DNA of 64,000 nt from a virus (Duplodnaviria; Caudoviricetes). The stretch lies in the IMG/VR virus record IMGVR_UViG_3300025383_000009; one strand, 5' to 3'. The notes beneath the pieces were generated by a model, which saw only the letters and a list, made by a program, of their open reading frames with translations, was not told the DNA's origin and searched no databases. A program made the position numbers and the translations under genes. Positions 1 through 55,122 of this stretch are shown here, in pieces; the first letter of the stretch is position 1, and each line of letters begins with the position of its first letter.

Positions 1-552
1 GATCTTGAAGTTTGCACCTTCCCATAAGTCAAACACGTTGACTGGTTTTTCATCTTCAAACGTTGGTCTTGCTTTGTTCATGATCATATCAAATATCTTT
101 TTACCATACTTGAATAGCATGACTTTGCCATTGTTTTCTGGGTGTACAGGGTCTGATACAACTAAGATGTTTGAGATGAAGTTTAATCTACGTTTTTGTG
201 TACGTGCGATCTCTTTGTTTGCATCTGAACCAGAGTTCCATAGCTTGGTGTTAAGTTCACCAACTGGATCGTTCTGACCTAGTGTCGTGAGTGAGTTCTC
301 AATGTACCATTTACCTGTTGGTCCTTGGAATCCATGTGAGAAGATCTTTACCCATGGTAACTCATCACCTTCCACTCTTGGTAAGAAACGGATAACTGCA
401 GCTGCATTACCTGCTTTATCTCTTTCTAATTTCCAAAAGCGATCGTCTGTGTAAGACTTAGTATCTGAGGAGGGGTTTACTGTCTTTTCGAATGCTGATG
501 CTATAGCACCGAAGTCTTGATTGCGCGAAGCGCGGAGTGTGTTAATGTCCAT
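1..552 (-). CDS. gp32: T4-like single-stranded DNA binding protein, N-terminal part (runs off window edge)
   Basis: Manual translation from ATG at 552: MDINTLRASRN...DDRFWKLERDKAGNAAAVIRFLP...PWVKIFSHGFQGPTGKWYIENSLTTLGQNDPV, typical gp32 motifs; missed by ORF track because it is open at the edge. Confidence 0.95.
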   Translation of the reverse strand, partial: MDINTLRASRNQDFGAIASAFEKTVNPSSDTKSYTDDRFWKLERDKAGNAAAVIRFLPRVEGDELPWVKIFSHGFQGPTGKWYIENSLTTLGQNDPVGELNTKLWNSGSDANKEIARTQKRRLNFISNILVVSDPVHPENNGKVMLFKYGKKIFDMIMNKARPTFEDEKPVNVFDLWEGANFKI

Positions 553-609
553 CGTATTTTCCTTTTAACGTTGTATTAATGTGTATAGAGCATGACTTCT
601 GCTCAGCTT

Positions 610-617
610 TATTTATA
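610..617 (-). promoter_or_regulatory. T4-type late promoter TATAAATA upstream of gp32
   Basis: Exact TATAAATA on minus strand 58 nt before the gp32 ATG. Confidence 0.6.
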
Positions 618-644
618 CATCCACACATCACGAATGCAATAAAT

Positions 645-872
645 TTATATATCAAGAGTACCTTTTTTGGGGAGGTAGTTATTCTCTATCATGTTCAATT
701 CAATCTTTTGTTTGAGGTTCTTATTGATTAACTTACTGATATCTTCAGGATCAATGAAGTTCTTTTCACAGTATAGTAAGACTGCATCCATATGAGAGAT
801 TCGTTTATCTACCACTAGCTCTTCAATAAACAAAGCAAACTCATTTGTGGTCTTAAATATACGGCCTTCCAT
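645..872 (-). CDS. gp33: Late transcription coactivator gp33-like
   Basis: F..FIEELV..K.ISHMDAVLLYCEKN.IDPEDISKLI...LKQKIE pattern, 75 aa, adjacent to gp32. Confidence 0.8.
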   Translation of the reverse strand: MEGRIFKTTNEFALFIEELVVDKRISHMDAVLLYCEKNFIDPEDISKLINKNLKQKIELNMIENNYLPKKGTLDI

Positions 873-1132
873 TACAGCATACCTAGATAATAATCTGTCA
901 TCTTGATATTGTGCTTGATGTTCTCAAAAGCCTTATACTTATCGTTATATGCTTTCCAGACTGGCGATGTCTTATCTGTAGTAGCATTCATCTGATCATC
1001 GAATAATTCAAGGTACTCCTCGAAGAAAACGTTTAGTTCATTAAGATTCTTATTAAGTTCACCTTTTACCCTGATTAGTTCTGCTTTGTTACCTGTTTGG
1101 TAACTATGATTTATATGTTGAGCCACGTTCAT
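872..1132 (-). CDS. Hypothetical protein
   Basis: 86 aa ORF with SD, directly downstream of an early promoter, coupled to gp33. Confidence 0.6.
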   Translation of the reverse strand: MNVAQHINHSYQTGNKAELIRVKGELNKNLNELNVFFEEYLELFDDQMNATTDKTSPVWKAYNDKYKAFENIKHNIKMTDYYLGML

Positions 1133-1156
1133 GTCCTATTCCTGATTTAAAATAAC

Positions 1157-1185
1157 ATTATACCATGATAAAGAATTAATGTACA
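1157..1185 (-). promoter_or_regulatory. Early sigma70-like promoter TGTACA-17-TATAAT
   Basis: TGTACATTAATTCTTTATCATGGTATAAT on minus strand. Confidence 0.75.
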
Positions 1186-1187
1186 TG

Positions 1188-52419: not shown

Positions 52420-52428
52420 GGAACTCAA

Positions 52429-52617
52429 ATGACAAACAAAACTTTAGTAGGCGAATGCCTTAACTGTGATTCATCTTACGGCATTCAATTCGTAAATGAA
52501 TTAGTATCAAAAGAACTACCAGAATATTGTCCATTCTGTGGTGAAGTAATCGAAGATATTCAAGAAGAATATATAGATGAAGAAACTACAGAAGATGATG
52601 ACGGACAATGGGACTAA
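52429..52617 (+). CDS. Zinc-ribbon protein
   Basis: CLNC ... CPFCG. Confidence 0.7.
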   Translation: MTNKTLVGECLNCDSSYGIQFVNELVSKELPEYCPFCGEVIEDIQEEYIDEETTEDDDGQWD

Positions 52618-53048
52618 ATTGGCAATATAAAGGTAAAGACTTTACAGAAGAGCAGATAGAAGATAATTACGGATTTGTATATCTTATAACAAATATAACA
52701 AACAATAAGAAATACATTGGTAAAAAATTCTTCTATTCTGCTAAAACAAAACAAGTAAAAGGCAAAAAGAAAAAGTATAAAGCTTTTTCCGATTGGCAAA
52801 CTTACTATGGAAGTAGTGACATATTGAAGCAAGATGTGTTACAATTAGGTCTTGAAAATTTTAGTAGAGAGATTATTCACCTATGTAAATCAAAAGGTGA
52901 ATGTAGTTATCTGGAAACTAAAGAACAATTTATTCGTGATGTAATATTAAGTGATGATTACTATAATACATGGATAATGTGTCGAGTTAGAAAATCACAT
53001 ATAAAGGATTACATTGAGCGATATACCAGAAACATTGAGAGAATTTAA
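52608..53048 (+). CDS. GIY-YIG-like nuclease domain protein
   Basis: GFVYLITN..N.KKYIGKK, Y.GSS, F.REI, E...Q. Confidence 0.75.
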   Translation: MGLNWQYKGKDFTEEQIEDNYGFVYLITNITNNKKYIGKKFFYSAKTKQVKGKKKKYKAFSDWQTYYGSSDILKQDVLQLGLENFSREIIHLCKSKGECSYLETKEQFIRDVILSDDYYNTWIMCRVRKSHIKDYIERYTRNIERI

Positions 53049-53385
53049 AAAAGGCGACCATGATGCCTTTTATTTTGTAGCATCACCTAAAGAAAAGGAT
53101 GGTAGCTCAACTATTCATTTTGAAGGATTCATGTATAATAATCCAGGTGTGTATGAAACCTATGAATTAGGTCAAATGTATCAAATTATATTGTATAGAG
53201 AGGATAAAGAAGGCCTCACTAAAGATTTAGATTTATTTGAAGGCATACTATTAGACCCATACTATTATGTTTCAAAATTATTATCAGGTGGTTGGTATGG
53301 TGTAGTAGCAAAGAAATCAACTACATCACACGAATTTGTTGATGAAGCGTATGCAGCACTTAAAAAAACAGAGTTACCAGAATGA
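53014..53385 (+). CDS. Hypothetical protein
   Basis: 123 aa ORF in operon. Confidence 0.6.
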   Translation: MSDIPETLREFKKGDHDAFYFVASPKEKDGSSTIHFEGFMYNNPGVYETYELGQMYQIILYREDKEGLTKDLDLFEGILLDPYYYVSKLLSGGWYGVVAKKSTTSHEFVDEAYAALKKTELPE

Positions 53386-53804
53386 CAGAAGAAATTAAAG
53401 AAGAATATTCAGGTCCAACGATACAAGAAAGGACTGCCAACAAGACCCACGAACTATTGGGTGAAGTTGAAGGTCTATTTGATAATTATATCAAAGATTG
53501 GGCTGATATAAAGAATTATTCTTTCCTATACAACATAGGCGTTAAACCTATGCACGCTAAAGCTATTGTATATCATGCTCAAGAACAAATTAAAGCATGG
53601 AACGAAGCATTGGTATCAGAAGACGAACAAATTAAAGAAGCGTATAGTTGTTATACCAAAACACAGATGCGTAAGTGTATAACATGGTGGGAAAAGATTA
53701 TTGAAGATTGTAACCGCATAATTGAAGATGGCAAATTTTTAAGAAAAGATAAGAAGTTTAGAAAGAAACTTACCGGTAAAGCTAAAATCAGGTTGACAAA
53801 GTAA
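53382..53804 (+). CDS. Short homolog of the central part of 7325..8419
   Basis: DEQIKEAYS..TKTQMRK.I.WWEKII.DC. Confidence 0.7.
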   Translation: MTEEIKEEYSGPTIQERTANKTHELLGEVEGLFDNYIKDWADIKNYSFLYNIGVKPMHAKAIVYHAQEQIKAWNEALVSEDEQIKEAYSCYTKTQMRKCITWWEKIIEDCNRIIEDGKFLRKDKKFRKKLTGKAKIRLTK

Positions 53805-53821
53805 TAAAAGTATAGTATCCT
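53793..53821 (+). promoter_or_regulatory. Promoter TTGACA-17-TATCCT
   Basis: Upstream of second RNase H. Confidence 0.6.
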
Positions 53822-53850
53822 TGCTATATTGAATCTTATAGGATTATATT

Positions 53851-54699
53851 ATGATACTCGTGGACTTAAATCAGGTGCTGTTAGCAGGTCTTATGGCACA
53901 AATAGCAAATCAAAAGAATACCAAGTTAGAAGAAAATCTAATTCGGCATATGGTATTAAACATCATCAGAACTCATGTTAAGAACTTCAAAGGTGAATAT
54001 GGTGAAGTCATATTATGCTGTGATAATAGAAAGTATTGGCGTAAAGAAGTATTTCCATTCTACAAGGCAGGTCGTAAGAAGACCAGAGAGAAATCTGATT
54101 TAGATTGGCATTTAATCTTTGATATGTTATCTAAATTCAAAGAAGAACTTAAAACAAACTTTCCATATAAAGTGATTGATGTTGAAGGTGCTGAAGCAGA
54201 TGACATCATTGGTACCTTGGTACCTAGATTTGCACCACATCAAAAGATATTGATATTATCAAGTGATGGTGACTTCTTGCAATTACAACAATATGGTGCA
54301 AATGTTAAACAATATAATCCATCACAAAAGAAATATGTTAAATCAGATAACCCCATACTTGATTTAAAAGAAAAGGTTATTCGTGGTGATAAGGGTGATG
54401 GTATTCCTAATATGTTTTCTCCATCAGATTGTTTTGTCCGTGATTTAAGACAAAAACCTATCACTCAAAAAGTCATGGAGAAGTATTTGAATGAAAACGT
54501 GGAAGATTATTCTGAAACTGATAAAGCCAACTATGCTAGAAATAGAACATTGATTGACTTAACAATGATACCTAAAGATGTCCAAGAACGTATCATAAAT
54601 ACATATGATGAAATTAAACCAGCACCTAAAAGTAAATTGATAAATTATTTTATGGAACATAAACTAAAAAATCTAATGGAAGTAATTGAGGAGTTTTAA
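53851..54699 (+). CDS. rnh: T4-type RNase H (copy 2)
   Basis: MILVDLNQ, CCDNRKYWRK, EADDIIG, SSDGDFLQL, GDKGDGIPN. Confidence 0.95.
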   Translation: MILVDLNQVLLAGLMAQIANQKNTKLEENLIRHMVLNIIRTHVKNFKGEYGEVILCCDNRKYWRKEVFPFYKAGRKKTREKSDLDWHLIFDMLSKFKEELKTNFPYKVIDVEGAEADDIIGTLVPRFAPHQKILILSSDGDFLQLQQYGANVKQYNPSQKKYVKSDNPILDLKEKVIRGDKGDGIPNMFSPSDCFVRDLRQKPITQKVMEKYLNENVEDYSETDKANYARNRTLIDLTMIPKDVQERIINTYDEIKPAPKSKLINYFMEHKLKNLMEVIEEF

Positions 54700-55122
54700 A
54701 TGAAAAATATCTATGAAGTGCTTGATGAATTTGAAGAAGCCAACACCAAAGAAGAAAGAATGGCTGTCATACAAAAGAACCTATCACAAACTCTAGTTGG
54801 TGTCTTCCAATTAGCATATCATCCAGATTATCAATGGTATTACGATTCAATGCCAGAAGATTATATTGTACCTGATACATTACCTGGTATTTCACGCAAT
54901 CAATTATCAACGGAAATTCGTAAAATGTATCTCTTTAGAAAAGGAGATCCTGGTGCTGCTAATCTAACACCTGAAAAAAGAAAACAATTATTATTACAAT
55001 TATTAGAATCTATTGAACCTCGTGAAGCAGAAGTTATCATTGGCATCTTTAGAAAAGATTTAGGTGTAAGAGGTTTGACTTATGATTTTGTAAAAGAGGC
55101 ATTCCCTAACCTTCTTCCATGA
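54700..55122 (+). CDS. Conserved hypothetical downstream of RNase H (copy 2)
   Basis: E.RKMYLF, KRKQLLLQLLESIEPREAEVII; homologous to 5747..6166. Confidence 0.75.
   Translation: MKNIYEVLDEFEEANTKEERMAVIQKNLSQTLVGVFQLAYHPDYQWYYDSMPEDYIVPDTLPGISRNQLSTEIRKMYLFRKGDPGAANLTPEKRKQLLLQLLESIEPREAEVIIGIFRKDLGVRGLTYDFVKEAFPNLLP

What the first reader, a model, noticed from the sequence alone, without database searches (positions are those of the whole stretch)
1..55122. Two diverged copies of a core block suggest two phage genomes fused near 13.4-14.4 kb
Seen: the triplet conserved hypothetical, RNase H, conserved hypothetical occurs at 5747-8419 (minus) and again at 53382-55122 (plus) as diverged homologs. 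GH19 lysin (3370, 45751) and an early gene (9879, 62495) are also doubled. The left part is visibly more GC-rich (one 60 nt line of each RNase H: 23/60 versus 15/60 GC) and uses TGTACA promoters, while the right uses TTGAC(A/T). Inference: either an assembly chimera joined in the shared curli/cyclase module or a real large-scale recombinant between distant T4-like phages. This matters for interpreting the cyclase-curli linkage.
Basis: partly seen in the sequence, partly recalled or inferred. Interest (0 to 1): 0.65.

Follow-up and report, generated by a model that had tools for sequence, protein, structure and literature searches.

The report
Assembly chimera of two T4-like phages
This stretch is two different viruses that the assembly software most probably stitched together at a 369-base sequence they share, so the doubled genes are one copy from each virus and not a new fused giant phage.

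Summary
The doubled genes, GC step and promoter switch are real. The window joins two distant T4-like phages: A on the left, B on the right. The lineage switch lies in a 369-bp block at 15,917-16,285 (3' end of csgG) that is identical in both, not at 13.4-14.4 kb, which is only the edge of an AT-rich shared cassette. Public contigs give both parents intact across the block (18 A-A, 7 B-B, 3 hybrid). Phage A closes on itself as a 159,982-bp circle. The 280,146-bp source contig carries both versions of primase, RNase H-region genes, GroES, CsgF, CsgG and cyclase, so it is all of A spliced into B by reciprocal joins. Other contigs end exactly 127 or 141 bases into the block, the assemblers' largest k-mers. 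This is a figure-of-eight path through a collapsed repeat (about 0.9). Reads could not be examined. The curli-FecR-cyclase linkage is native to both phages and already published. By-product: the two phages have recently swapped pieces of this cassette.

The parts
1..15916 (-). Phage A (strain A2) segment: Clp-type protease, exonuclease, GH19 lysin, DUF6433, RNase H, DsbA, early genes, CHASE2 cyclase, RimK, DUF4337, FecR, most of the curlin-like gene
   Evidence: 100% identical to L055 over 3775-15294 and to L091 over 14931-16285; 99.9% to L003/L006; A-type or A2-private alleles at nearly all informative sites up to 15916
15917..16285 (.). 369-bp block identical in phages A and B (3' end of csgG, start of curlin-like gene); site of the join
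   Evidence: Longest identical run between L001 (A) and L009 (B); window is A at 15916 and B from 16286; L179 ends 127 nt and L048 141 nt into the block, L015 starts at 15917
16286..64000 (+). Phage B segment: csgG 5' part, csgF, lipase (minus strand), then gp43, UvsX, gp41, primase, NrdA/B, RNase H, GroES, early-gene island
   Evidence: No mismatch to L009 from 16,000 to 19,200; 100% to L032 over 50212-64000; L009, L022 and L032 are one 124,896-bp contig
14340..17474 (-). Shared curli cassette (93-aa gene end, csgF, csgG, curlin-like gene, FecR), 90.7% identical between A and B
   Evidence: 290 differences in 3135 aligned bases; proteins 90-97% identical while other A/B orthologues are 34-83%; B-like composition even within native A
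15061..15369 (.). 309-bp block identical between strain A1 and B (the window's strain A2 has private alleles here)
   Evidence: L006, L075, L078, L079 end inside it
15727..15909 (.). 183-bp block identical in A and B; L011 and L016 switch from A to B here instead
5747..8419 (-). Phage A copy of the triplet: 364-aa protein, (62-aa gene), RNase H, DUF6433
53382..55122 (+). Phage B copy of the triplet: 140-aa protein, RNase H, DUF6433
3370..4002 (-). Phage A GH19 lysin
45751..46359 (+). Phage B GH19 lysin, 49% identical to A's
9879..10199 (-). Phage A early gene behind a TGTACA promoter (10198-10226)
62495..62812 (-). Phage B homologue of that early gene, in B's native GC-rich island
10356..12365 (-). 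Phage A CHASE2 adenylate/guanylate cyclase (669 aa); B has its own 685-aa copy (65% identical) outside the window

Best explanation
Two distantly related T4-like phages, A (strain A2, a 159,982-bp circle) and B (at least 120 kb), were in the same sample. Their curli cassettes share a 369-bp identical block, longer than the largest k-mer used by short-read assemblers. The block collapsed into one edge of the assembly graph with two entries and two exits. The assembler crossed it twice with swapped partners: B arm, block, the whole A circle, block, other B arm. The result is one 280,146-bp contig with two reciprocal joins, of which the window shows one. The doubled genes are ordinary orthologues, one from each phage. 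Shown: position of the switch, identity of the block, both intact parents, circular closure of A, both gene sets on a contig of that length. Inferred: that the join exists only in the assembly and not in DNA molecules.
For: Parents intact across the block in 18 (A-A) and 7 (B-B) distinct contigs, against 3 hybrids plus the window (loci of one contig merged). The four Logan contigs that span it (L087, L094, L017, L074) are all parental. L091 is native A2: identical to the window over 14931-16285, then A-type csgG. Contig Ga0208378_1000003 has the window's join at one end (L003) and A2's own primase-NrdA-NrdB-csgF-csgG arm at the other (L179), ending 127 nt into the block, which gives a closed circle of 159,982 bp. 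A contig of 280,146 bp is the longest carrier of window gp43, primase, RNase H, cyclase, RimK, GroES, CsgF and CsgG, and also of A's primase variant, NrdA, NrdB, GroES, CsgF, CsgG and of B's cyclase, 118-aa protein, gp44 and gp45; 280,146 - 159,982 = 120,164, close to the 121,358 and 124,896-bp B contigs. L048 (k141 assembly) ends 141 nt and L049 119 nt into the block; assemblers leave maxK-long ends at shared regions (PMC10914622). Hybrids switch in different identical blocks (369 bp: window, L003; 183 bp: L011, L016). A head sized for a 160-kb genome could not package 280 kb by T4-type headful packaging (established knowledge).
Against: The same A2-to-B switch appears in a second JGI assembly (L003). 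The cassette is really exchanged between these lineages, so crossover molecules at this spot must sometimes exist. The contig tally comes from exact-protein look-ups and from assemblies that may share reads, so it is not an unbiased count. That the 280,146-bp carrier is one contig and is the window's source is inferred from its length and from window offsets, not read directly.
Confidence: 0.9

Rival explanations
1. Real cointegrate: a single crossover in the 369-bp block between A and B replicating in one cell (UvsX-type recombination) gave a figure-of-eight molecule common enough to be assembled.
For: A reciprocal crossover gives the same structure as the graph path. Identical tracts show that recombination happens here. 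The same join is in L003. B encodes UvsX at 22802-23884.
Against: Parental forms dominate and no Logan contig is hybrid. A and B assemble apart in many samples. Contig ends at k-mer length mark the block as a graph branch. A 280-kb dimer with two core sets cannot be packaged whole, so such molecules should be rare and short-lived (inference).
Confidence: 0.06
2. Stable mosaic phage of unit length in which B's replication arm replaced the matching arm of A.
For: B's arm supplies primase, NrdA, NrdB, GIY-YIG and GroES, the same functions as the A arm that natively lies there.
Against: The A arm is not replaced: its primase, NrdA, NrdB, GroES, CsgF and CsgG are on the same 280,146-bp contig. None of 80 viral csgG loci shows gp43 upstream together with RNase H downstream.
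Confidence: 0.02
3. One phage with an old internal duplication of the RNase H block, lysin and early gene.
For: Homologous genes in the same order occur twice in the window.
Against: Each copy lies in its own complete parental context in public contigs; composition and promoter type differ between the halves.
Confidence: 0.01

Closest known systems
Chimeric joins and maxK-long contig ends at regions shared by different genomes in de Bruijn metagenome assemblies (PMC10914622, COBRA)
   Same: A shared exact block longer than k; contigs that stop 127 or 141 bases into it; a join between two genomes through it.
   Different: Here the shared block comes from a mobile phage cassette, and the path crosses it twice so that one whole genome is nested in the other and mimics a 280-kb jumbo phage.
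Viral type VIII secretion (curli) region of pelagiphages: 'HK'-CsgF-CsgG-CsgA/B-FecR-adenylate cyclase (PMC9599517; CsgF/CsgG also in PMC7029224 and PMC9004378)
   Same: Same order csgF, csgG, curlin repeat gene, FecR, cyclase; transfer of the whole module between phage groups was already inferred from trees.
   Different: CsgG is only about 41% identical to HTVC008M and Melnitz. Exchange between A and B is recent enough to leave 100% identical tracts of 183-369 bp. A inserts DUF4337, a 117-aa gene, RimK and a 43-aa gene before the cyclase; B inserts 118-aa and 78-aa genes and has a lipase upstream. No second curlin gene was seen.
Modular mosaicism and recombination between co-infecting T4-like phages (own knowledge)
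   Same: Exchange of an accessory cassette by homologous recombination between phages with diverged cores.
   Different: Known viable mosaics keep one copy of each core gene; this contig keeps two.

Membership tests
Assembly chimera through a shared repeat | The switch lies in an exact block shared by both parents and longer than the largest k-mer | tested here: met
   369-bp identical block 15917-16285, the longest between L001 and L009; the k used for this contig is not known, 127 and 141 are seen in sister assemblies
Assembly chimera through a shared repeat | Both parental arrangements exist intact in other assemblies | tested here: met
   18 A-A and 7 B-B contigs; L091 is the native form of the window's strain
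Assembly chimera through a shared repeat | Single-copy core genes are doubled on the contig | tested here: met
   Primase, RNase H, GroES, CsgF, CsgG and cyclase of both phages, plus A's NrdA and NrdB beside the window's own, on a 280,146-bp carrier; gp23, gp32 and A's gp43 not counted
Assembly chimera through a shared repeat | Other contigs break at the block with k-mer-long ends | tested here: met
   L179 127 nt, L048 141 nt, L049 119 nt into the block; L015 starts at 15917; L050 (124) and L046 (115) end nearby without a clear k match
Assembly chimera through a shared repeat | No reads span the join, or coverage steps at it | not testable with these tools
Viable recombinant phage genome | One copy of each core gene and unit genome length | tested here: not met
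   Complete 159,982-bp A circle plus about 120 kb of B
Viable recombinant phage genome | Hybrid arrangement dominant in at least one sample assembled without repeat resolution | tested here: inconclusive
   0 of 4 spanning Logan contigs are hybrid; small sample
Viral curli (T8SS)-FecR-cyclase module | csgF, csgG and a curlin-repeat gene in order | tested here: met
   PF10614, PF03783; PF07012 above its cut-off for 15328-16035
Viral curli (T8SS)-FecR-cyclase module | FecR and adenylate cyclase downstream | tested here: met
   PF04773, PF05226 + PF00211 in both parents; 47 of 47 viral loci
Viral curli (T8SS)-FecR-cyclase module | Upstream small genes annotated as histidine kinase in PMC9599517 | not tested
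   Two paralogous 92-93 aa membrane proteins lie upstream with no Pfam hit on record; not compared with the published proteins

The most novel reading that the evidence does not exclude
The join is also real DNA: phages A and B, whose core proteins are only 35-83% identical and which use different early promoters, co-infect one host and recombine in the curli cassette often enough that A-B cointegrate molecules are common in the sample. The weaker part of this (recent exchange of cassette tracts between the two lineages, hence a shared host or a shared pool of donors) is likely true (about 0.85) but extends a published idea.
Probability: 0.06. Interest if true: 0.6.

Novelty: not a real feature. 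Interest (0 to 1): 0.15.

Why it matters
As biology the fused genome is very probably not real. As quality control it matters: the 280,146-bp record would pass as a jumbo phage, and notes on it mix two viruses. By my arithmetic, positions from about 143.9 kb before the window start up to 15,916 belong to phage A and the rest to phage B, so gene-content, host or genome-size claims must be made per phage. The operon read in this window from the lipase to RimK is a hybrid that neither parent has. The curli-FecR-cyclase linkage survives the test and is published. The 100% identical tracts suggest that this cassette is still moving between distant T4-like phages, which makes it a predictable source of false jumbo phages and a hint that A and B share a host.

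Tried and rejected
No GenBank phage is near-identical to 1-19,000. Pattern scans found only 3 viral and 2 metagenome contigs with the block and no viral record for a phage B pattern. Rejected: junction at 13.4-14.4 kb (contigs of strain A2 run through it without a mismatch). Rejected: a third genome starting at the GC jump near 62 kb (native to B in more than 12 contigs). Rejected: that strain A2 natively carries the B-type csgG and lipase (L091 and L179 show its A-type arm). Rejected: that the block is identical only through purifying selection (0 of 87 third codon positions differ inside, 26 of 174 outside).
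Full report
Observation. The window holds five pairs of diverged homologues: RNase H (40% identity), DUF6433 (34%), the gene before RNase H (29% over 100 aa), GH19 lysin (49%) and an early gene (65%). GC is 38.5% left of 14.3 kb and 33% to the right. The three perfect TGTACA promoters all lie left of 10.3 kb and the seven TTGAC(A/T) promoters all right of 18.5 kb, both far above chance.

Two parents. Exact look-up of the window's RimK gave contigs in which the curli cassette is preceded by NrdB, a GIY-YIG gene and other genes absent from the window (phage A), and further up by A's own GroES, primase, epimerase and NrdA. 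Exact look-up of the window's CsgG gave contigs in which gp43, the lipase and the cassette are followed by a 118-aa gene, a 78-aa gene, a different 685-aa cyclase and gp62, gp44, gp45 (phage B). A and B orthologues are distant: primase 41%, GroES 35%, RNase H 40%, cyclase 65%, NrdA 76%, NrdB 83%. The cassette proteins are close: CsgF 90%, CsgG 97%, curlin-like 94%, FecR 96%.

Where the join is. At 290 sites that tell A (L001) from B (L009), the window is A up to 15,916 (three B-type sites near 15,050 apart) and B from 16,286; between them lies a 369-bp block identical in both, the longest of three such blocks (369, 309, 183 bp). The window's left part is a strain of A (A2) with private alleles at 13.6-14.1 and 15.0-15.4 kb. 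L091 carries these FecR alleles, is identical to the window from 14,931 to 16,285, and goes on into an A-type csgG and csgF, so it shows the native continuation. That explains the misplaced junction and suggests that A received the cassette from a B-like donor (inference).

The whole contig. Contig Ga0208378_1000003 (162,835 bp) has the window's join at one end (L003) and A2's own primase-NrdA-NrdB-csgF-csgG arm at the other (L179). That arm ends at window-equivalent 16,159, exactly 127 nt into the block, so A2 is a closed circle of 159,982 bp. Window offsets in earlier notes imply a source of 192,000 + 24,146 + 64,000 = 280,146 bp (inference). A contig of exactly that length is the longest carrier of the window's gp43, primase, RNase H, cyclase, RimK, GroES, CsgF and CsgG, and also of A's CsgG, CsgF, 362-aa protein, primase variant, NrdA, NrdB and GroES, and of B's cyclase, 118-aa protein, gp44 and gp45. 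So it holds both arms of both phages. Subtracting the A circle leaves 120,164 bp, close to B contigs of 121,358 and 124,896 bp. The record is all of A nested in B by two reciprocal joins.

Artefact or molecule. The indirect evidence favours the artefact. Contigs spanning the block are A-A in 18 cases, B-B in 7 and A-B in 3 besides the window, and the four Logan contigs are parental (the sample is biased by how loci were fetched and assemblies may share reads). Hybrids switch in different identical blocks. Several contigs stop inside the block, L179 at 127 nt, L048 at 141 nt and L049 at 119 nt from its edge, matching k-mer sizes of metaSPAdes and MEGAHIT; PMC10914622 reports maxK-long ends at such breaks and names chimeric joins as a known assembly error. 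369 bp also exceeds 150-base reads and usual short inserts (own knowledge; not measured for this sample). A 280-kb molecule with two core sets would not fit a head sized for 160 kb (T4-type headful packaging, established knowledge). I put the chimera at 0.9 and an abundant real cointegrate at 0.06.

What is real underneath. The cassette is 90.7% identical between A and B, yet has a 369-bp perfect run (about 1e-13 expected if differences were spread evenly; 0 of 87 third positions differ inside against 26 of 174 outside). B-like phages from other samples carry A-type FecR alleles (L021, L043), and short foreign tracts occur in L018, L016 and L095, though some of these may be assembly errors too. 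Recent recombination in the cassette is the simplest reading, and it created the repeat that misled the assembler.

The cyclase-curli question. The linkage does not depend on the join. Both parents have it, and all 47 viral csgG loci with at least 6 kb downstream have FecR and the cyclase. It is published for pelagiphages, with transfer between phage families (PMC9599517); CsgF and CsgG in T4-like phages are in PMC7029224 and PMC9004378. Only the window's particular run, lipase through RimK, is a hybrid that neither parent shows.

Verdict. Observation confirmed, junction relocated, chimera very likely, cassette known. Low biological interest; useful as a warning for every note made on this record.

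Noticed in passing
window 6168-7075, minus strand: Phage A's RNase H is called from a GTG at 6902 (244 aa) but the frame is open further up, where an AGGAG ribosome site near 7075 precedes an ATT codon near 7061 and a start (IIILDYSQ) that matches B's MILVDLNQ; probably a non-canonical ATT or ATA start.
   Followed up: partly
window 61951-64000: GC rises from 33% to 44% with a strand switch and clustered TTGAC promoters; this early-gene island is native to phage B in more than 12 contigs and is not a third genome.
   Followed up: yes
L062:13050-15968 (Ga0208253_1000072): The unit 92-aa gene, Asp/Asn hydroxylase, 118-aa gene is present twice here, once in L063/L064 and absent in L067, L091 and L179; copy-number variation between paralogous 91-92 aa genes, or a repeat artefact.
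   Followed up: no
L021 and L043 (window-equivalent 14340-17500): B-like phages from other samples carry A-type FecR alleles and a third, more diverged csgG 5' part: natural mosaics of the cassette.
   Followed up: partly
window 9718-10199 vs L001:13218-13875: Strains of phage A differ in the early genes right behind the cyclase (106/95-aa and 53-aa genes in A2; 80, 61 and 76-aa genes plus a WYL_2 gene in A1).
   Followed up: no
window 41633-42056: Two tandem copies of about 201-226 nt, 87% identical, inside the 695-aa ORF 40127-42214.
   Followed up: no
window 22299-22778 (+) and 63380-63673 (-): Two small secreted-looking proteins of phage B are homologous (36% over 67 aa, E 6e-6), a real paralogue pair within B.
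   Followed up: no
L106, L108, L111, L113, L114, L142: In several related phages the cyclase lies on the opposite strand, converging on the curli-FecR run.
   Followed up: no
L033:2-1500: A strain of phage B has a diverged NrdB-GIY-YIG stretch (76% to the window at 51895-53017) and lacks the 140-aa gene before RNase H, another swapped tract.
   Followed up: no
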